Program-made: the position numbers and the translations under genes
Assembly: GCA_034226945.1 (NCBI GenBank)
Contig: CP120464.1
Coordinates: forward strand, 1 to 64,000
Origin: Picochlorum sp. SENEW3
Taxonomy: Eukaryota
Direction of reading: 5' to 3'
Length of the DNA: 64,000 nucleotides
Part shown: positions 26,808 through 35,591 of the stretch, one piece after another
Position numbering within the stretch: the stretch's first letter is position 1
Layout of the letters: the number at the start of each line of letters is the position of its first letter
The notes under the pieces: generated by a model
What the model saw: only the letters and a program-made list of their open reading frames with translations
The model's database searches: none
What the model was told of the DNA's origin: nothing

Positions 26808-27770
26808 ATGGTGAAAAACATACTGATCATCGGGGGAAGCGGATATTTGGGTCGATTTCTGGTGGGTCATTTTCAGAACAGTCCCTCAGTATGCGTCGGA
26901 TACACATCGCACTCGACTTCGCAGGTATTACATTTTGACAATCAAACAGTACGTCATCATAGGATTGATCTAGAGACTGGGGATGGACTAGAAGACTGTA
27001 TGACAACTGTCAAGCCAGTTGTTGTCATACATTGTGCTGCCATCTCGTCGCCAAAAGCCTGCGAGGAGAATCCAGAGCATGCTGAGGCGATCAATGTACC
27101 AACCCATCTGATATCATGCTTGAAATCGATGGATAGTACGCCCCTGCTGATTCATTTGTCGACAGATCAGGTGTATGGAGGGTCCCTGGCCAATTCTTCA
27201 GAGACGGATCCGATCGACCCAAAGAATACCTATGCTCTGTCGAAATACAAGGGTGAAGAGTATACTCGACAGAATTGGGACAATTACGTGATACTTCGAT
27301 CGAGCATCATATACGGTCCGGAGATTCCTCCTGGTGCATCTCATGGGGTGGGAAGGCCACTCTTTGTCCAATTCGTGCAACAATGCCTCGAGAAACGACA
27401 GTCTACCACATTTTTCACCGACGAATGGAGAAACCCTGTATATGTGGGAGATATTGTAGACGCTTGTGCCTATTTTGCGGGCAAGGCAGGGGAAGGGCAG
27501 AGGCAGGAGGTGTACAATTGTGGGGGCCCAGAAAGGCTATCCAGATTTGACATGGCCATGGCCATTGCAGAAAGGTATTGCAGCTCGACGGCAGTCGGAT
27601 CAGAGGAGGAAAAGGAGCGAATACAGCAATGTATTGTTCCTGCGTCTACAAAGGATGCCACAAATAGAGGATACACATCTCCACCTGATATCTCCATGGT
27701 GTCCACAAAGTTGGAACATGAACTTGGCAAATCCATGACCAGTTTCTGTGATGGCATCACACTGCTATGA
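26808..27770 (+). CDS. RmlD-like NAD(P)-binding protein (dTDP-4-dehydrorhamnose reductase/MAT2B-like)
   Basis: GGSGYLG, IHCAA, HLSTDQVY, YALSK, FFTDEWRNP. Confidence 0.85.
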   Translation: MVKNILIIGGSGYLGRFLVGHFQNSPSVCVGYTSHSTSQVLHFDNQTVRHHRIDLETGDGLEDCMTTVKPVVVIHCAAISSPKACEENPEHAEAINVPTHLISCLKSMDSTPLLIHLSTDQVYGGSLANSSETDPIDPKNTYALSKYKGEEYTRQNWDNYVILRSSIIYGPEIPPGASHGVGRPLFVQFVQQCLEKRQSTTFFTDEWRNPVYVGDIVDACAYFAGKAGEGQRQEVYNCGGPERLSRFDMAMAIAERYCSSTAVGSEEEKERIQQCIVPASTKDATNRGYTSPPDISMVSTKLEHELGKSMTSFCDGITLL

Positions 27771-27809
27771 GTATTTTCATTCATTCATGTAGTACATACA
27801 CCCCCCATT

Positions 27810-28265
27810 TCATGATGGCTTGCTTGCAGGAGCCATAGAAGAAGAAGAAGAAGGCAGTTTCAGTTTCAACTTCTTCTTGGCCATGGCACCCACCTTCAAA
27901 CTAATCTTCGTCTTGCTCTTCTCCCCCTCCTCCTTTATCTTCTGTCGTGTCCCTGTAGGAGGCTGCCCAAGCATGCTCGTATCCATGAGCACACCATCCC
28001 CTACCTCTGCCTGACCACCACCCCGCAGGGTGTTCAGCAGTGCAGCATCGTCAGACTCTGTCAACAAGGCAAAAGTTGGCGCAGCCTGAGAAGGAAACTT
28101 CTCAGCAAGAGGTCCAAGATCAAACCTACTCTTCTCTCTCCGAAGAGGTTCATAGAATGGTATGTTCTGCAAGTAATCTCCCCGAGTGAAATCCTCTCCA
28201 AGAACGTGACGCATTAACGACGTCAGTCCATGCGACTCTACTGGATCCATATGGATGGATGCCAT
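27810..28265 (-). CDS. Small protein with Lys-rich tail, possibly Mediator subunit 19
   Basis: 151-aa ORF; 'DYLQNIP...DLGPLAEKFP...FALLT' plus basic C-terminus loosely resemble MED19. Confidence 0.4.
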   Translation of the reverse strand: MASIHMDPVESHGLTSLMRHVLGEDFTRGDYLQNIPFYEPLRREKSRFDLGPLAEKFPSQAAPTFALLTESDDAALLNTLRGGGQAEVGDGVLMDTSMLGQPPTGTRQKIKEEGEKSKTKISLKVGAMAKKKLKLKLPSSSSSMAPASKPS

Positions 28266-28813
28266 ATATGAATGTAAATAATTATTCAGGAAGGGGTGGA
28301 AATCATGCGCATTGGATGTCAGGCAGGGAATGCCAATTAATTACAGTTGTGTGGGTTACAGCACCATGCTGTAATAATAATCCTCCTTCATTATGGAGGA
28401 TGAGATGTCGACATCTCCCCGTCGATCGACGGAGGCTGCAATTGGATATTGTATCATCCCCGGTGGAGGAGCAAACTGCAATTACCCCCAAGTATCCAAG
28501 CTATGTATGATCCTCCCCCTGGCATTGCCAGCCTGGCAATGGTGGAGGGTGCCAAGAAAATCAGTGCAATGCTTTGGCTGTAGAAAATGGCATGTCTGCT
28601 GCTTGTGCACAGTTGTTCGTACATAGAATTTACACATATCTCTTGAGATTATTTTGATAATCGCTTGGCCAGAGCAAGCTTGCTTAGCCTTAAGGGTTTG
28701 GGCAAAGTCGCTTTAGCTTGCAAGTGCCGTCCTTCATGTGACAACATCGCGAGAATCTTGTTTCATTTCTCATTGTGAAACCATCGTATCAGCTAATAAT
28801 AGGAGCTCAGAAG

Positions 28814-30637
28814 ATGGCCCTCCCTTTACACGAGCTGTACAAAGACAGAGATGTCTGGGAGTTTTGGAGGGAGACTGGGGCGTTTTCGGACGCTATTCCC
28901 CGTATATGTGACCACATAGAGACTTTAATTCTACGCTATGGGGCATTGTACGGCTTGGTGGTGTGGCTGGGGACCGATGGGAAGCTGTATATGGTTTCCA
29001 GCAGGAACTTGGGGCTTGCCTTTAGGCTCATACCCTTGAGGCTTTTGAAGCAAGGTCTGAGGCCCTATGTCGCTGAGATCCTCGGATATCGACCCCATTG
29101 GGTTGATTGCATCAAAGTGAAGAATATATATGGACGAGGGAGCCAGGATAAGAGGGGAAATAGCAAAGGATATCACAATAAGAAGGCTGCTTTCTCCCTG
29201 CTGCAGAAGAGGCTAGGAAAGTCGCAGGACTTGCCTGTTCTGGCCGTAGTATATGCAAACGATAAATATCTAACGCTTTGTCACCCTCAAAAAGACACTG
29301 CGATGCAGAATTTAATGGACAAGGTGATACATTACTACAAATCTTTGTCAACGCAAATCAAGCCTAATTTCTCCTTGTTCCCTCCCTCTTCACAGATTGA
29401 CAGCACTCAGGGCCCTAAAAGAGCACCAAATACATCTTGTGGTACGAGTTCATCGAAAAAGAAGCCCAAAACAGGGTGTGAGCAGCCTTCAGGAGATGAG
29501 GCTATGGAGTCTGTGCCTCCCTCAGGCTCGCTGGAGTGGTATTGCCGCGCGATCGAGAGTCCTAATGGTACAGGAGTTACTCCTCTAATCAAAAAAGGAA
29601 GGATCTATGAATGGGCGTTCGCAGATGCGCGAATTCACGGGACTGGGGTAGATATGAAGGTCCATCACAACATGCTCGTTGTGGTGGAGTCTGGACATAA
29701 CATTACGGAGCACATGCGCTGCTCTTGTGCTGTATTTCGTAATCAGTTTGAGCCTAAGCGATGTGTGCATACGTTGTATGTACGTGCGAACTGGGAACAT
29801 CTGCGCAGCATGGCATTTGCAAAGGAAGATGATGTGGTGACCATCAAACAAAATAACTCCAGCACTGTTTGCTATTATGTGGATGGCTGCTTCGTCAGAA
29901 CTCAAGGAAATAAGGGTCTGCGCTGTGACTCAGATAAATCATATAGTTGTCGCCATATCGCTCGAGTGCGGGAGGCATTGCACCTGGTGGTGGAGCCTGG
30001 AGAGGAAGAGAGTGCATGCACACCTGATTCCTATGCTTTCTCCTCTGATGATGACGGGGCAGAAGTCCTATCTCTGAATCCATGGATATCAAAGATAGCA
30101 AAAACGATTCAACAAATTCATTATCCCTATTGCGACGAAGTGAAGCGGGGAGTCATGGAACGGCTGCTGTTTGGCTTTTCAAGAGACAAGGAAGGAACTC
30201 CACTTGGGCCCCTGCAGCCACGTATTCCCATTTCGATCAAGTGCAAGTGTGGCCTTTCTTACAATAGGAGGGGCTATAAAGAGACAGATCCTGTCACGGT
30301 CTACATGAGAGCGCCGCACTGTGCCCAATCACTGCCTTGCATGGTGTTGAAGTGCCAGAGAGGTGAACCAGAATGCACGTTGCATTATACAGGGCCACAA
30401 GATGGCTTGTGGCGGGCCTCCAAGACAGTGGCGATAGAGCTAGACTTGCTAGTACGATGTGCAAAGGATTCTGTTAGATTTGATGGGCAGTCGCTTACGG
30501 CACACCGAGACAGCATCAGTGACCTGTATGATATGGTCTCTAACAGCATCCCTACTGTGAGTTTCCTGGAGGCCAGTGCGTTCAGAGAGGCAGTGTACGG
30601 CATTGATCGCTTTCTACATCATGATTGTTATTTCTAG
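28814..30637 (+). mobile_element. KDZ (Kyakuja-Dileera-Zisupton) transposon-derived ORF: SWIM-like zinc fingers plus CxC4-like cluster, no catalytic transposase domain visible
   Basis: CSC-x11-CVH (29714-29770), second C-x7-CRH (29924-29956), C-terminal 'CKCG...VTVY...C..C.LHYTGPQDGLW...ELDLL...FREAVYG...YF'; intronless; no TIR or TSD found. Confidence 0.6.
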
Positions 30638-30859
30638 GAGGGTGTGAGGACACTATATGCTGCAATTTCATCAAAAGCCCATGTTGTCTTGTGCTGTAAA
30701 AGAAAGAACTTCGATCGAATGGTCACGTTCATGGGACCATCACCTTCTTCTTCTTCATCGTCTTGGAGATCCCTTGGCTTGTATGACAAACCTGGTACGA
30801 TTCACTTCGAAACATTCCTATTTCACCAGGAATGGCCGATCAATCCATAGAGTTTCATT

Positions 30860-32239
30860 ATGGAAGGCTTTTATATTGTTTTATTCGTAGTCCAAGCTGT
30901 TTTGGCTGGATATTTGGAATCTCATAATGTAGCACGAAAGGAGAGCAAGCATGGGGATGCTCCGAAGGATTTTGTTCAATTTAAGAATAACTATTTACTC
31001 GTATATTCGATGATGATGGCAGGGGACTGGCTGCAGGGCCCCTACGTCTACGCCTTGTACGAGCATTACGGATTTGGTCGAGGAGACATTGGTCGCTTGT
31101 TTATTGCTGGGTTTGGCTCATCGATGATTTTTGGGACCATTGTGGGAAGTCTGGCAGACAATCATGGGAGGAAGAGGGCTGCGTTGACATATGTGGTGTC
31201 GTATATGCTTGGATGCTTTACCAAGCATGTCAATTCGTTCTGGGTGCTCTTCATGGGGCGCGTGTTTTGTGGTGTGGCCACGTCTCTGTTGTACTCTGCT
31301 TTCGAGTCATGGCTGGTTGGAGAACATTTCAAAAGAAACTACGAAGCTGATTGGCTGGGTGGTATTTTCTCTCAGGCAGTGTTCTTGGGAAATGGGTTGA
31401 TGGCCATTGTGAGCGGGCTGTTTGCCCACTCCCTTGTGGAGACCTTTGCGCTCGGCCCGGTGGCGCCGTTCGATGCTGCTGCTCTCGTGCTTGGTATCGG
31501 AGGAATCATCATTTTCAGCACATGGTCGGAGAATTATGGGGATGCTTCCCATAGGAACAAGAATCAGCAGGAAATTTTCAAAAAGGCTGCTGGGGTGATC
31601 ATGGCAGACCCCAAGATTGCGCTGCTGGGCGTTATGCAGGCCTTGTTCGAGGGTTCCATGTATACGTTTGTGTTTTTATGGACACCAGCGCTGAGCCCGA
31701 ATGGGGAGCATATCCCCCATGGCATGGTGTTTGCGTGCTTCATGGTGTCCTGCATGGTTGGATCGGCATTCACAGGAAAGCTCCTTTCCAAATCCAGCAC
31801 CATCCCTCCAGAGAAGTATATGCAGCTTGTGTTTGGGCTCGCATCCGCCTGCCTTGCGGTACCGGTTCTCTTCGCTGGATCCGACTCGAGCAACATGATG
31901 AGCGAGGGCATCTCTTGGAATGGGAAAATCCAACTGATTGCCTTTTGCTGTTTTGAAGGCCTTGTTGGTATCTTCTGGCCCTCCATGATGACCCTTCGAT
32001 CTCAGTACGTTCCAGAAGACCTCCGCTCTACCATTATCAACTTTTTTAGGATCCCATTGAATCTGTTTGTCTGCGTGGTTCTGTACAATGTCAGCAGCCT
32101 ACCATTGTCAGCCATGTTTGGCATGTGCTCCTTCTTCCTGCTGGTATGCATGGTGTGCCAAAACCGCTTTGCAAACATTGTTGCGCAGCATAAGAATGAT
32201 GAACCACAGTCAAAAGATCTCTTGGCAAATGCCACCTGA
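30860..32239 (+). CDS. MOT2: Molybdate-anion transporter MOT2/MFSD5 (MFS)
   Basis: YSMMMAGDWLQGPYVYALY, LFIAGFGSS, SLLYSAFESW, FEGSMYTFVFLWTP, NFFRIPLN. Confidence 0.92.
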   Translation: MEGFYIVLFVVQAVLAGYLESHNVARKESKHGDAPKDFVQFKNNYLLVYSMMMAGDWLQGPYVYALYEHYGFGRGDIGRLFIAGFGSSMIFGTIVGSLADNHGRKRAALTYVVSYMLGCFTKHVNSFWVLFMGRVFCGVATSLLYSAFESWLVGEHFKRNYEADWLGGIFSQAVFLGNGLMAIVSGLFAHSLVETFALGPVAPFDAAALVLGIGGIIIFSTWSENYGDASHRNKNQQEIFKKAAGVIMADPKIALLGVMQALFEGSMYTFVFLWTPALSPNGEHIPHGMVFACFMVSCMVGSAFTGKLLSKSSTIPPEKYMQLVFGLASACLAVPVLFAGSDSSNMMSEGISWNGKIQLIAFCCFEGLVGIFWPSMMTLRSQYVPEDLRSTIINFFRIPLNLFVCVVLYNVSSLPLSAMFGMCSFFLLVCMVCQNRFANIVAQHKNDEPQSKDLLANAT

Positions 32240-32505
32240 TCCCGTTGCATCATCAGACCACCTGATCTTGGATCTTGCAAGATCCAATTGGATCCAGACA
32301 GAGATGATTTTTGCTTTGACAACAACAAGGAGATGACTCGCGATGCAACCCAATAGCATGTCCATAGTTTTAGTGTACCATATATAAATTGAATACGATT
32401 GTCCATACGAATCCTTGTAACAGTTTGCCGACATGTTCCGAGACATGTCCCGAATTGTTGTAGTATAGTTTGCATCAGTCCGGGTGCACTCAATTGTCAT
32501 AGGGT

Positions 32506-33404: not shown

Positions 33405-35591
33405 ATGAAGCTTTTGAAGAAGAAAAAGAGCAAGGGCCGTCAGGAGCTCTTCTATTTTGATATAGATGAATTGTCTCCATGGCCTCCGTTGCATGGTCCG
33501 TTGATATTGCAGTGGCAGAGGGGGTCGAAGAGACGGGGCCAGAGTGGGGTGGTCCAGCCAGAGGGCGATGGGGATTCTGAGCCCACGTCATACAAATTTG
33601 GGACTCGGTTTGAGATCCCTGCGACCTTGTATGACAATGGGAAGAAGAGGAAGGATCTGAGTCTGTTTGTGTGCCAGTTGAATGAGAAGGGAAAGGTGGG
33701 GAATATGGTTGGTGCTGTCACCATTGATCTCGTTGGATTGGATTCTCTGACGAGTCAGCCTGCTCGACAAGAGTATATTGTCGAGTGTAGTGAGTCTATT
33801 GCGGAATTGGCTCAAGGTCGGCCTAAATTGAGGATTGGTTTGTCAAAGAGTGGGGGTGTGGAGGGTGATGCCGCAGTGGTTCATGATGAGGGGCAGGGGG
33901 TGAGCAATGATATTCCTATTCCTTCGACGCTGTCGACAGAGGTGAATTCCTCTCAGGCCTCAGGTGGGAATGTTGCGAGTTTGAGAACGATCACGAGTCC
34001 GAGGAGCAAGGTGGTTGTGCCAGAGATGGTGGAAGAGGAGTATGATGAGGACGGGTTTCTGGTGGACGGTAGCAAAGAGAAGAGCTTGTCTTTCATGCCT
34101 GAAGATCGTGAAGACCTCTTGTATTCATCAGGGACAGAGACACGAAAGAATTTGGAGGGTGATTTGGAAAAGGCTATGGATGAGGATACAGAGGATGATC
34201 GGTCTCCGTTCAGGGCGTCAAGGAGGAAACCGATACATGAGAGGCGATTTTCGAGGGATGTGAATTCTTTTGGATCGCTTCAACAGTTTAAAGGTGAGGA
34301 GGATGCCATGACAGGTTTGCCCTCCATGGTGGCAAGCTGCAACTCGACCATGCTGCATGCAAGGGAAAAGGATGAGTCAGGCTATCGCCAGAAGAGAGAT
34401 ATGCAAATTGCTGCTGCTGTAGAAATGTCAGTTTGGGCTGCTGGTGCGAGTTGGGGATCCGATCGGCCCGGAGAAATGCCGAGGGGCGACAGGATGCAGG
34501 CCCCGGCTCGAAGGCTTGCGCGCACAATCATCAGGCTTGGGGAAGAGGATGGTCCCAAATTTATGGATCAAGCCCTGCATATGATTAAAAAGTCCTGTGT
34601 AGCATCTCTTGGGGATGTTCATCGAGTGATGATGATGTGGTCATGCATGGTCACGCTGCGATGGTCATTTTGGACATTGGTGGACAAGAGCCGACCTGCT
34701 GAGACACTCATGGCTGGCTTCGAGTGGTTGCAAGAGATAATTTGCCCCCGAATAGAAGCCGTGGAATCGTGGCTTTTTGATACATTGTTATCATACCTGT
34801 GGACAGGAAAAATGATGAGAGATTTGCAGGAATGCAGAGACGCTGACAGCCTTGACCAACTTGTGACTGATTACATGGGCGTGCTACGCACGGCACTGGG
34901 CGTGCTTGAAGATAGAAGTCGACCTGCTCCGTGTTCGAAAACTTTGAAAATGGTATTGAAGAAACAGGTGTTACACGGTATTCGTGTGAAGCTGGATGCG
35001 TTCCTGCTGAGTGAGTTGCTGGAGCAGCGTGTGTCCTGCTTTCGTCCTGTCACCTCACCCTTGGGTCTCGAGCTCAAGATATTCATCGATAAAATATCGA
35101 CATGGTTTGAGAGCGATGCAACCAGTACGAGAGAATTTGGTCAAGAAGAATGGTACAATGCACAGCAGGACACCAAGATGGATAGTGCATTGCCACGCAT
35201 GGCAAGCGCAGCCAACGTGATTGTTGCTCAGAAATCCTCCCTCCTAGATGCTGAGGCTCGTGATCGGATTGCGCCCCACATATCCCTGGCGTCTGCATGC
35301 AAGATTTTAAAAAACTATGAATCCACAAAAGAGGATGCAGAGAATGTGGAGGAGATTGTTGCAGCTCTGAAATCTCAAGCAAGGAGCAAGATTGATCTGA
35401 AAGAATCCTCTGAAGCCATGGATTCGGTACAGTATGTTGTCCCGCCTGAAGACTGGCTATCGCAACAGGGCATTATCCAGCCTCTATCTCTGGAGATGAA
35501 TGCAGACTCTGACGAAGAATTGGAATCGTTTGAATCGGTCAGTTCTGGGGAGAGATTTACATATTTACGTGAATTATGGTCAGTTAATTGA
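33405..35591 (+). CDS. NT-type C2 domain protein (EEIG1/EHBP1 N-terminal) with helical, possibly DIL-like C-terminus
   Basis: LSPWP...LILQWQRG...FEIPATLY...VGAVTIDL; later APARRLAR and LDAFLLSELL...GLELKIFI. Confidence 0.7.
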   Translation: MKLLKKKKSKGRQELFYFDIDELSPWPPLHGPLILQWQRGSKRRGQSGVVQPEGDGDSEPTSYKFGTRFEIPATLYDNGKKRKDLSLFVCQLNEKGKVGNMVGAVTIDLVGLDSLTSQPARQEYIVECSESIAELAQGRPKLRIGLSKSGGVEGDAAVVHDEGQGVSNDIPIPSTLSTEVNSSQASGGNVASLRTITSPRSKVVVPEMVEEEYDEDGFLVDGSKEKSLSFMPEDREDLLYSSGTETRKNLEGDLEKAMDEDTEDDRSPFRASRRKPIHERRFSRDVNSFGSLQQFKGEEDAMTGLPSMVASCNSTMLHAREKDESGYRQKRDMQIAAAVEMSVWAAGASWGSDRPGEMPRGDRMQAPARRLARTIIRLGEEDGPKFMDQALHMIKKSCVASLGDVHRVMMMWSCMVTLRWSFWTLVDKSRPAETLMAGFEWLQEIICPRIEAVESWLFDTLLSYLWTGKMMRDLQECRDADSLDQLVTDYMGVLRTALGVLEDRSRPAPCSKTLKMVLKKQVLHGIRVKLDAFLLSELLEQRVSCFRPVTSPLGLELKIFIDKISTWFESDATSTREFGQEEWYNAQQDTKMDSALPRMASAANVIVAQKSSLLDAEARDRIAPHISLASACKILKNYESTKEDAENVEEIVAALKSQARSKIDLKESSEAMDSVQYVVPPEDWLSQQGIIQPLSLEMNADSDEELESFESVSSGERFTYLRELWSVN

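What the first reader, a model, noticed from the sequence alone, without database searches (positions are those of the whole stretch)
28814..30637. Intact KDZ/Zisupton-type transposon-derived gene that stops just before the transposase core
Seen: a ~607-aa uninterrupted ORF among housekeeping genes, with a SWIM-type CxC-x11-CxH finger, a second partial finger and a C-terminal cysteine cluster ('CKCG...VTVY...KC...EC.LHYTG..DGLW...ELDLL...Y...F...AFREAVYG...DCYF*'). Known: CxC clusters and SWIM fingers precede the catalytic domain in KDZ transposases and in the domesticated HMGXB3 family. Inference: the stop falls where I would expect the CPxCG...DG start of the catalytic region, and a TGTAA signal follows near 30695. 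This could be a domesticated DNA/chromatin-binding protein or a recently truncated element. The N-terminal ~190 aa are unrecognised; 'DGKLYMV...YVAEILGY' is faintly Bro-N-like.
Basis: partly seen in the sequence, partly recalled or inferred. Interest (0 to 1): 0.75.

Follow-up and report, generated by a model that had tools for sequence, protein, structure and literature searches.

The report
Transposase-derived gene lacking its cutting domain
A green alga of the Picochlorum type carries a single-copy gene that is the front half of a Zisupton-type "jumping gene" enzyme without its DNA-cutting part, and it appears to be transcribed and kept intact, so it may have been recruited as a DNA-binding regulator.

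Summary
The 607-aa ORF at 28814-30637 (+) is real. It is the N-terminal ~57% of a KDZ/Zisupton-type transposase. Pfam does not hit it directly. Picochlorum renovo models, 71% identical over the whole ORF, and ~1000-1110-aa relatives at 30-36% identity run on into a CPxC...DG motif and the KDZ core, PF18758.

The window holds no KDZ core. Homology ends at 30625, and an MFS_5 transporter gene starts at 30860.

The retained parts are a basic family-specific N-domain with no known fold, a SWIM-like CxC-x11-CxH module and a CxC4-like cluster.

The truncated form looks retained, not freshly broken:
- A 607-aa ORF with the same end lies on an MMETSP transcript.
- The locus is syntenic and free of indels in three related organisms.
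- Substitutions avoid family-conserved positions, 0 of 36 (p=0.0017) and 2 of 71 (p=0.0023).
- A rough nonsynonymous/neutral rate ratio is ~0.44.

Evidence against: the evolutionary depth is shallow, one P. renovo model is frameshifted, and one relative lacks the SWIM module.

Most likely this is a non-catalytic DNA-binding derivative, possibly a repressor of the multicopy parent family. It is a new member of a known kind, of moderate interest.

The parts
28814..30637 (+). 607-aa ORF: truncated Zisupton/KDZ-type transposase-derived gene (with stop codon)
   Evidence: 71% identity over the whole length to P. renovo models P0003/P0004. A 607-aa ortholog, P0046, lies on an MMETSP transcript.
28886..29377 (+). 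N-terminal family-specific alpha/beta domain (residues 25-188), basic (pI 9.8), no Pfam family, no clear known fold
   Evidence: AF2 blocks mostly pLDDT 80-95. Conserved in ~1000-aa relatives. Best VIA Z 4.5. pI. Multicopy at >=85% nt identity in run X13.
29378..29506 (+). Disordered Ser/Lys-rich linker (residues 189-231) with a KKKPK stretch (NLS-like, inferred)
   Evidence: pLDDT <50 for residues 189-231. Sequence.
29507..30007 (+). Middle beta-rich module (residues 232-398) holding the two Cys/His clusters
   Evidence: Model of residues 225-400 alone, pLDDT 87.1, pTM 0.82. Weak likeness to SWIM proteins: ZSWIM8 9rwz_M Z 3.8 (rmsd 4.0, 83 aligned) and Shu2 6dex_B Z 3.2.
29720..29770 (+). SWIM-like finger C303-x-C305-x11-C317-x-H319
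   Evidence: Sequence. All four ligands nearly invariant in the family. Pfam SWIM not hit by the ORF; 1 of 40 members hits at E=0.085.
29924..29956 (+). Second cluster C371-x7-C379-x-H381
   Evidence: C371 and C379 nearly invariant.
30008..30064 (+). Acidic disordered linker (residues 399-417)
   Evidence: pLDDT <50. pI 4.05.
30065..30625 (+). C-terminal module (residues 418-604) with a CxC4-like cysteine cluster; last stretch homologous to full-length transposases
   Evidence: Residues 464-597 align to the CxC4 domains (PF18717, 36.5-46.9 bits) of P0023/P0024/P0027 at E 1e-9 to 7e-8. tblastn homology to P0003 ends at 30625.
30626..30637 (+). Three non-homologous codons (CYF) and the stop: the truncation point
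   Evidence: Alignment. The same ...HHDCYF end is in P0002, P0007 and P0046. P0005 ends right after the D.
30695..30699 (+). TGTAA, the usual green-algal polyadenylation signal (recalled knowledge)
   Evidence: Sequence. A contig of run X16 ends at 30703.
28266..28813 (.). Upstream intergenic region, not alignable to the family's own upstream sequence beyond ~30 nt, and rich in indels between strains
   Evidence: Indels of 1, 4 and 14 nt, 136 nt replaced by 1121 nt and 27 nt replaced by 234 nt. Alignment with L001 upstream. Paralog contigs become unlike exactly before 28814 (table 7).
30860..32239 (+). Downstream neighbour, MFS_5 (MOT2-type) transporter. It leaves no room for a catalytic exon.
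   Evidence: PF05631, E 6e-136. X13 record 6 covers 30166-32497.

Best explanation
The ORF is what remains of a Zisupton-type (KDZ superfamily) DNA-transposase gene after loss of everything from just before the CPxC...DG motif onward. That loss includes the whole catalytic core.

What remains encodes the non-catalytic front end:
- a basic family-specific N-domain;
- an NLS-like linker;
- a SWIM-like zinc module;
- a CxC4-like zinc cluster.

The copy is fixed at one locus between ordinary genes. It is transcribed in at least one related strain and has been kept open under purifying selection.

Most likely mechanism (inferred, not shown): the protein still enters the nucleus and recognises DNA through its zinc modules and basic N-domain, but cannot cut. 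In a genus whose genomes carry many copies of the parent family, the simplest role is a trans-acting repressor. It would occupy the element ends or poison transposase assemblies, as truncated transposases do in other systems.

My sub-odds:
- derived from a KDZ/Zisupton transposase and lacking the core: ~0.95;
- maintained by selection: ~0.6;
- specifically a repressor of the parent family: ~0.3.

The confidence figure given is for 'derived, core-less and maintained as a non-catalytic protein'.
For: Origin:
- 71% identity over the full ORF to P0003 (1046 aa) and P0004 (822 aa; KDZ 33.1 bits against cut-off 26.6).
- 40 relatives at E<=0.001 in 1.84 billion representatives, 12 of them at E<=1e-30.
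- 10 of the 17 scanned carry KDZ above cut-off, always C-terminal to the part that matches the ORF.
- 13 of 40 members match KDZ and 11 of 40 match CxC4.
- SWIM + CxC4 + KDZ is called the canonical Zisupton structure.

Loss of the core:
- No KDZ-like coding sequence anywhere in the 64 kb.
- The next gene starts 222 nt after the stop.

Retention:
- The same end occurs in P0002, P0007 and P0046.
- P0046 is a 607-aa ORF labelled as an MMETSP transcript.
- A 263-nt contig of an oligo-dT metatranscriptome covers 30247-30509 with 7 differences.
- Contigs of X13 and X16 carry the ORF in the same neighbourhood, with 0 gaps in the listed pieces that span it, while the upstream spacer has at least 5 indels. 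In X13, record 1 covers the upstream gene to 28843 and record 6 covers 30166 into the transporter gene. X9 contigs cover parts only.
- The 3' junction bin is at single-copy depth in X13 (10.4).
- The truncated forms form one clade (SH-aLRT 99 with P0005, 91 with P0007).

Constraint:
- 0 of 36 scored substitutions between the window and P0046/P0002 fall on the 88 positions that are >=70% conserved in distant full-length relatives (Fisher p=0.0017).
- For P0005 the count is 2 of 71 (p=0.0023).

Parent family:
- It is abundant in relatives. Summed depth is 120-350 against ~10 over 28840-29391, and 22 contigs cover one site in X13.
- The N-domain has pI 9.8.
Against: - The clear orthologs are only ~2-5% diverged, so the gene may simply be young.
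- The P. renovo model P0047 matches the ortholog for ~202 residues and then reads out of frame. This is either a real pseudogene or an assembly error.
- P0005 lacks residues ~230-391, the SWIM module, and its genomic place is unknown.
- P0007 looks like a mosaic of the full-length type and the truncated type (my reading; one search gives the differences). Gene conversion from selected transposon copies could therefore mimic constraint.
- The rate ratio assumes that the X16 allele encodes P0046. 8 of 8 listed nonsynonymous X16 variants agree, but only 40 of 287 variant rows were shown.
- Among the 12 X16 variants listed inside the ORF, 8 are nonsynonymous and 4 synonymous. Alone, that is not distinguishable from neutrality.
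- If 20 of the 33 other changes lie in the flanks, omega rises to 0.69.
- Expression in the window's own strain was not tested.
- DNA binding, nuclear import and any effect on transposition are inferred only.
Confidence: 0.55

Rival explanations
1. A young, non-functional relic. A Zisupton-type insertion lost its 3' half by deletion shortly before these strains split, and the remaining ORF has simply not yet decayed.
For: - Orthologs differ by only 30 of 607 residues.
- The P. renovo model P0047 is frameshifted.
- P0005 carries a large internal deletion.
- Decayed copies of the family exist: L001 has at least two frame breaks, and there are fragments P0016, P0017, P0021 and P0035.
- The listed X16 variants are 8 nonsynonymous to 4 synonymous.
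Against: - Substitutions avoid conserved positions (p=0.0017 and 0.0023).
- The rate ratio is 0.44-0.52.
- There are no indels in 1.8 kb while the 548-nt spacer has at least 5.
- A full 607-aa ORF lies on a transcript.
- The truncated clade includes an ~18% diverged member that still ends at the same point.
Confidence: 0.28
2. Classical domestication for a host function unrelated to transposon control. The zinc modules would serve as a transcription or chromatin factor, as in other transposase-derived regulators.
For: The retention evidence is the same as for the best explanation. GC3 of 0.515 lies inside the range of 22 other window ORFs, 0.43-0.60. The gene has its own, non-family upstream region.
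Against: The gene is seen only in close relatives so far. The parent family is still multicopy in relatives, which makes interaction with it the more economical role. No target or partner is known.
Confidence: 0.2
3. A non-autonomous, still mobile deletion derivative of the element, moved in trans by full-length copies.
For: Deletion derivatives are common among DNA transposons (general knowledge). Some KDZ lineages (Kyakuja) have no TIRs (PMC12730594, passages read), so missing TIRs do not exclude mobility.
Against: - The locus is the same in X13 and X16, and in the parts that X9 contigs cover.
- Depth at the 3' junction is single-copy.
- There are no convincing TIRs around the ORF. The best flanking pair is a GAA/CTT low-complexity run.
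- Similarity to family copies starts at the ATG and ends at codon 604, so no element termini are retained.
Confidence: 0.04
4. Assembly or annotation artefact. The catalytic half exists but was lost from the assembly, or is joined by splicing.
For: No whole genome is held to check.
Against: Independent contigs of other organisms bridge the ORF end to the transporter gene: X13 record 6 (30166-32497) and X9 records 26 and 27. Independent proteins and a transcript ORF end at the same residue.
Confidence: 0.02

Closest known systems
Zisupton-type KDZ transposases, e.g. the KDZ + CxC4 + SWIM protein CNA07690 of element KDZx1 in Cryptococcus deneoformans (bioRxiv 10.1101/2024.08.15.608186, passages read); KDZ elements are also active in green algae (Kyakuja-3_cRei in Chlamydomonas, PMC10828217, passages read)
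   Same: It has a SWIM-like finger followed by a CxC4-like cluster. Its full-length relatives then carry the KDZ domain.
   Different: This ORF has no KDZ core, no TIRs or TSDs, and is single-copy and syntenic. It carries an extra ~165-aa N-domain that Pfam does not know.
Picochlorum renovo gene models P0003 (1046 aa) and P0004 (822 aa, KDZ) and the unnamed ~1050-1114-aa single-ORF relatives (P0009, P0011, P0013, P0015 and their clusters)
   Same: They are colinear with the whole ORF, at 71% and 30-36% identity respectively. The Cys/His columns listed as nearly invariant are kept.
   Different: They continue for another ~450-500 residues through CPxC...DG and the KDZ core. The window gene stops three codons after the homology ends.
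Truncated-transposase repressors such as the P-element KP/66-kDa proteins and the Tn5 inhibitor (recalled knowledge, not checked here)
   Same: The N-terminal DNA-recognition part is retained, the catalytic part is missing, and full-length family copies coexist in the genus.
   Different: Those arise from internal deletions or alternative products of mobile copies. This one is a fixed single-copy locus, and repression is untested.
Transposase-derived host genes with SWIM fingers (FHY3/FAR1 from MULEs) and HMGXB3, said to derive from KDZ (both recalled; the KDZ source paper is not held)
   Same: It is a transposase-derived, immobile gene under constraint with zinc modules.
   Different: As I recall, those retain much of the transposase core and are conserved over deep time. 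This gene keeps only the pre-core half and is documented only within close Picochlorum relatives.

Membership tests
KDZ transposase (Pfam PF18758) | Presence of the KDZ catalytic domain | tested here: not met
   0 Pfam families for the ORF at E<=1 and E<=10. No tblastn match to residues beyond 645 of P0003 anywhere in the window.
KDZ/Zisupton transposase gene lineage (descent, not activity) | Colinear homology to the pre-core half of proteins that carry the KDZ domain | tested here: met
   P0004 at 71% identity with KDZ 33.1 bits. 10 of 17 scanned relatives have KDZ above cut-off downstream of the matched part. Alignment.
CxC4 cluster (Pfam PF18717) | Direct match of the profile | tested here: not met
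   No hit for the ORF.
CxC4 cluster (Pfam PF18717) | Homology to bona fide CxC4 domains | tested here: met
   ORF residues 464-597 align at E 1.2e-9, 2.3e-9 and 7.4e-8 to P0023, P0024 and P0027. Their aligned parts are CxC4 at 46.9, 36.5 and 39.2 bits against cut-off 26.9. 11 of 40 members match CxC4.
SWIM zinc finger (Pfam PF04434) | CxCxnCxH signature | tested here: met
   C303, C305, C317 and H319 are present and nearly invariant in the family.
SWIM zinc finger (Pfam PF04434) | Profile match / SWIM fold | tested here: inconclusive
   The ORF has no hit; 1 of 40 members hits at E=0.085. ZSWIM8 Z 3.8 (rmsd 4.0, 83 aligned) and Shu2 Z 3.2 are among noise-level rows. Foldseek places ZSWIM8 at rank 29, E 0.72.
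Intact Zisupton transposon | Terminal inverted repeats and 8-bp target-site duplications (PMC12730594) | tested here: not met
   No credible flanking inverted repeat in 27700-31000. Similarity to family copies is limited to the coding part.
Domesticated transposase gene | Single copy at an orthologous locus in several taxa | tested here: met
   X13 and X16 contigs cover the ORF and both neighbouring genes at 2-4% divergence; X9 covers parts. The 3' junction is at single-copy depth. This holds only for close relatives.
Domesticated transposase gene | Expression | tested here: inconclusive
   P0046 is labelled an MMETSP transcript ORF. One oligo-dT metatranscriptome contig covers 30247-30509 at 97%. 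The window's own strain was not tested, and X16's RNA status is a guess.
Domesticated transposase gene | Purifying selection | tested here: met
   0 of 36 and 2 of 71 substitutions fall at conserved positions (p=0.0017 and 0.0023). The rate ratio is 0.44-0.52. This is rough, because no orthologous CDS was in hand for a codon model.
Domesticated transposase gene | Conservation over deep evolutionary time | not testable with these tools
   No Pfam hit. The best fold rows for residues 16-186 are unrelated proteins at Z<=4.5. Nothing at E<=0.001 in the viral library.

The most novel reading that the evidence does not exclude
A compact, transposon-poor green alga has fixed the DNA-recognition half of a Zisupton transposase as a dedicated trans-repressor of that still-multicopy family. 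Its basic N-domain would be a previously undescribed DNA-binding fold that recognises the element ends. This would be the first KDZ-derived 'immunity' gene, and a handle on how Zisupton transposases find their ends.
Probability: 0.25. Interest if true: 0.65.

Novelty: new member of a known kind. Interest (0 to 1): 0.45.

Why it matters
KDZ/Zisupton transposases are poorly understood. No member surfaced in my sequence search of solved structures, and how they recognise their ends is unknown.

A naturally isolated, apparently selected, non-catalytic front half offers two things. It is a tractable protein for defining the DNA-binding modules: a new N-domain, a SWIM-like module and a CxC4 cluster. 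It is also a possible case of transposon control, or gene birth from a transposon, in a very compact algal genome of biotechnological interest.

If it is only a relic, it still documents the family and its full-length architecture in Picochlorum.

Tried and rejected
- **Direct Pfam scan of the ORF:** no hits.
- **Profile search of solved structures with the family alignment:** only chance rows, E 0.34-0.46.
- **Foldseek on the whole model,** against PDB and against viral models: nothing at E<=0.001.
- **VIA-align wide:** whole model best Z 4.5, middle module best Z 4.2, so no fold assignment. Foldseek on the middle module found nothing at E<=0.001.
- **ESM Atlas with residues 1-195:** no usable hit.
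- **Search for longer proteins (1064-3035 aa):** none at E<=0.001.
- **Whole-genome search:** no genome is held, so other copies, TIRs and TSDs could only be sought within the window, where no further copy exists.
- **Inverted and direct repeats around the ORF:** nothing credible.
- **Metagenome scan:** gave only one decayed, frameshifted copy, L001. It was not usable for dN/dS.
- **Homodimer prediction of the N-domain (residues 20-190, two copies):** no verdict, score 0.00; the alignment was not used by the tool.
- **The paper that defined KDZ** (PNAS 2014), and with it the HMGXB3 link: not held. It is cited from the reference list of PMC12730594 and from recall.
- **Parts of the ORF without cover in the metatranscriptome run X17** are not evidence of silence.
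- **Literature:** no paper in the held library joins Picochlorum with Zisupton (a search of 'picochlorum', 'transposase', 'zisupton').
Full report
**1. Observation**

The window has an uninterrupted 607-codon frame at 28814..30637 on the + strand.
- C303-x-C305-x11-C317-x-H319.
- C371-x7-C379-x-H381.
- A C-terminal cluster with C477-x-C479, C514 and C521.

TGTAA lies at 30695-30699.

The neighbours are ordinary genes:
- An RmlD/epimerase-like gene at 26808-27770.
- An ORF without any Pfam family at 27810-28265 (-).
- An MFS_5/MOT2-type transporter at 30860-32239 (E 6e-136).

Base composition and GC3 (0.515) of the ORF are like those of 22 other long ORFs of the window, which range 0.43-0.60.

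**2. What it is**

Pfam finds nothing in the ORF itself (0 families at E<=1; again at E<=10).

The word-indexed protein search found 5 proteins at E<=0.001 among 7642 candidates:
- P0003 (1046 aa) and P0004 (822 aa), two Picochlorum renovo gene models, are 71% identical over the whole ORF.
- P0004 carries the KDZ transposase domain, at 33.1 bits against a cut-off of 26.6. P0003 is cut short and scores 21 bits.

The exhaustive search of 1.84 billion representatives gave 40 proteins at E<=0.001, of which 17 were at <=1e-10 and 12 at <=1e-30. I scanned 17 of these 40 with Pfam:
- 10 have KDZ above the cut-off, always downstream of the part that matches the ORF.
- 3 (P0023, P0024, P0027) have CxC4 (PF18717) above the cut-off, exactly where they align to ORF residues 464-597.

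Over all 40 rows of alignment A2, 13 match KDZ, 11 match CxC4 and 1 matches SWIM at E 0.085.

The 14-row alignment shows a colinear architecture:
- N-domain.
- Linker.
- Beta-rich module with the SWIM-like finger and a second Cys/His cluster.
- Acidic linker.
- CxC4-like module.
- A variable stretch of 25-45 residues.
- The motif CPxCxxxPxVxIxDGT and about 400 further residues ending in the KDZ domain.

The window's ORF stops three codons after the last alignable residue, D604 at 30625.

A passage in bioRxiv 10.1101/2024.08.15.608186 calls 'KDZ + CxC4 + SWIM' the canonical domain structure of Zisupton. PMC10828217 (passages) reports an active KDZ element in Chlamydomonas, so the superfamily is known in green algae. 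The best named hits place the window in or near Picochlorum.

**3. The core is really missing**

tblastn with P0003 and P0004 finds nothing in the 64 kb beyond 30625 at E<=1e-3. The transporter gene begins 222 nt after the stop.

Contigs of other organisms bridge the ORF end into that gene: X13 record 6 (30166-32497) and X9 records 26 and 27.

No credible inverted repeats flank the ORF. Similarity to family copies begins at the ATG. Paralog contigs of X9 and X13 become unlike exactly before 28814, and carry the same upstream letters as the decayed copy L001.

**4. Structure**

With a 40-row alignment, AlphaFold2 gives mean pLDDT 81.1. There are three confident modules, residues ~25-188, 232-398 and 418-604, joined by disordered linkers at 189-231 and 399-417. 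The middle module alone gives pLDDT 87.1 and pTM 0.82.

No known fold stands out:
- Foldseek found nothing at E<=0.001.
- VIA-align wide gave a best Z of 4.5 for the N-domain and 4.2 for the middle module.
- Two SWIM proteins appear among the noise-level rows: ZSWIM8 at Z 3.8 (rmsd 4.0, 83 aligned) and Shu2 at Z 3.2. This is a hint, no more.

The N-domain is basic (pI 9.8; 25 K+R against 11 D+E). It has no Pfam family in any relative scanned. The Bro-N idea found no support.

**5. Relic or retained gene**

Evidence for retention:

- (a) *Same end in independent sequences.* The end ...HHDCYF is found in P0002 (444 aa, 96%), P0007 (273 aa) and P0046 (607 aa; 30 of 607 residues differ). P0005 (442 aa, ~81%) ends right after the same D.
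- (b) *Transcript evidence.* P0046 is labelled as an ORF of an MMETSP transcript of 3407 nt. A 263-nt contig of an oligo-dT metatranscriptome (X17) covers 30247-30509 with 7 differences.
- (c) *Synteny without indels.* All 4 of 4 chosen runs could be laid. X13 and X16 carry the locus in the same neighbourhood at about 2-4% nucleotide divergence, and X9 contigs cover parts. X16 records 11 and 12, which together span the ORF, have 0 gaps, as do X13 records 2, 4 and 5. The 548-nt upstream spacer has indels of 1, 4 and 14 nt and two replacements, 136 nt by 1121 and 27 nt by 234.
- (d) *One clade.* In a tree of 14 rows, the truncated forms form one clade, with SH-aLRT 99 including P0005 and 91 including P0007. 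The clade lies beside the P. renovo full-length and SENEW3 copies. I left out the short fragments P0006, P0014, P0016, P0017, P0021, P0035, P0047 and P0049.
- (e) *Substitutions avoid conserved positions.* Of 561 scored positions, 88 are >=70% conserved among ten distant relatives.
  - None of the 36 scored substitutions between the window and P0046/P0002 falls on them (Fisher one-sided p=0.0017). The rank test on conservation gives p=0.04.
  - For P0005 the count is 2 of 71 (p=0.0023).
- (f) *Rate ratio.* The 8 of 8 listed nonsynonymous variants of X16 are those of P0046. Taking the X16 allele as P0046 gives these figures:
  - At least 31 of the 64 differences over 28634-30703 are nonsynonymous.
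  - That gives a rate ratio of 0.44 against synonymous plus flanking sites (p=0.0007).
  - Omega lies between 0.27 and 0.69, depending on how many changes lie in the flanks.

Evidence against retention:
- Divergence among the clear orthologs is small.
- Only 40 of 287 variant rows were shown. The 18 inside the ORF split 10 nonsynonymous to 8 synonymous. The 12 of these seen in X16 split 8 to 4, which alone is not distinguishable from neutrality.
- The P. renovo model P0047 follows the ortholog for ~202 residues and then reads out of frame.
- P0005 lacks the SWIM module.
- P0007 looks mosaic, so gene conversion from selected mobile copies could contribute to the conservation.
- Whether X16 is RNA is a guess by the tool. 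Its depth is nearly flat over four genes, although its contigs break in both spacers and end in adapter letters at 28261 and 30703.

**6. The parent family is alive or recently alive in the genus**
- In X13 the summed depth over 28840-29391 is 120-350 against ~10 elsewhere, and 22 contigs cover one site. X9 shows the same pattern more weakly.
- Decayed copies and fragments exist: L001 with frame breaks; P0016, P0017, P0021 and P0035; and a fragment fused into a SENEW3 glycosyltransferase model, P0006.
- Unnamed relatives of 1049-1114 aa occur as single ORFs on many 3-8-kb contigs.

**7. Mechanism**

*Shown:* descent from a KDZ/Zisupton transposase gene; absence of the catalytic half; retention of all the Cys/His columns listed as nearly invariant; a fixed single-copy locus; signs of constraint; and a transcript in a relative.

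*Inferred:* the protein is nuclear (KKKPK linker) and binds DNA through the basic N-domain and the zinc modules, but cannot cut.

With the parent family multicopy in relatives, I consider a trans-repressor the most economical role. It would act by competing for the element ends or forming dead complexes. This is the way truncated transposases act in the P-element and Tn5 systems (recalled). A host regulatory role is the next best, and a young relic remains a serious rival.

A homodimer prediction for the N-domain gave no verdict and counts for nothing either way.

**8. Comparison and novelty**

It works like, and descends from, a Zisupton transposase front end. It is not a member of the KDZ transposase family in the sense of the defining domain, which was tested and is absent. 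Transposase-derived genes and truncated-transposase repressors are known kinds.

No paper in the held library links Picochlorum with Zisupton or KDZ. PMC6141220 (passages) mentions only 61 genes in putative transposable elements in P. costavermella.

I rate it a new member of a known kind, with a family-specific N-domain of unknown fold as the most original part.

**9. Verdict**

Its interpretation is supported, apart from the Bro-N hint and the unverifiable HMGXB3 analogy. Interest is moderate (0.45). It would rise if deep synteny, a codon-model omega below 1 and binding to the element ends were shown.

Noticed in passing
window 53135-59713: One complete rDNA unit on the - strand: 28S at 53880-57246, 5.8S at 57518-57671, 18S at 57922-59713. 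A 5S rRNA gene lies on the + strand at 53135-53253. Protein-coding ORFs flank it on both sides (51203-52848 and 61115-63115). This is either a single-copy or collapsed rDNA locus with a linked 5S.
   Followed up: partly
window 28313-28450 and 28606-28634: In X13 the spacer upstream of the ORF has 1121 letters in place of 136. In X13 and X16 it has 234 in place of 27. X16 also runs on unlike the window before 28450. The content of these insertions could not be read. They could hold the gene's promoter or a remnant of the element's 5' part.
   Followed up: no
window 28840-29391 and 30128-30311: These stretches (N-domain and the start of the CxC4-like module) have 8-35 times the single-copy depth in run X13 and 3-6 times in X9. 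Relatives therefore carry many family copies at least 85% identical in these parts.
   Followed up: partly
P0007 (273 aa, 1212-nt contig): Its first ~130 residues resemble the P. renovo full-length type, and its last ~140 the truncated type including the HHDCYF end. It could be gene conversion, an early branch of the truncated lineage, or an assembly chimera.
   Followed up: partly
P0006 (436 aa, Picochlorum sp. SENEW3 model): A glycosyltransferase (PF05686) gene model is fused to a fragment of this family (ORF residues ~64-272). A family fragment therefore sits next to, or inside, another gene in that genome.
   Followed up: no
L001 212-1418: A metagenome contig holds a copy of the family with at least two frame breaks, and the family-type upstream sequence. 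It is a decayed copy and the source of fragment P0014.
   Followed up: partly
A contig of X16 ends with adapter letters at 28261, four bases inside its first ATG codon region, so its true start may be the second Met.
   Followed up: no
window 33405-35591 (+): A 728-aa ORF has sub-threshold NT-C2 (23.0 bits against 25.2) and DIL (21.7 against 24) matches.
   Followed up: no
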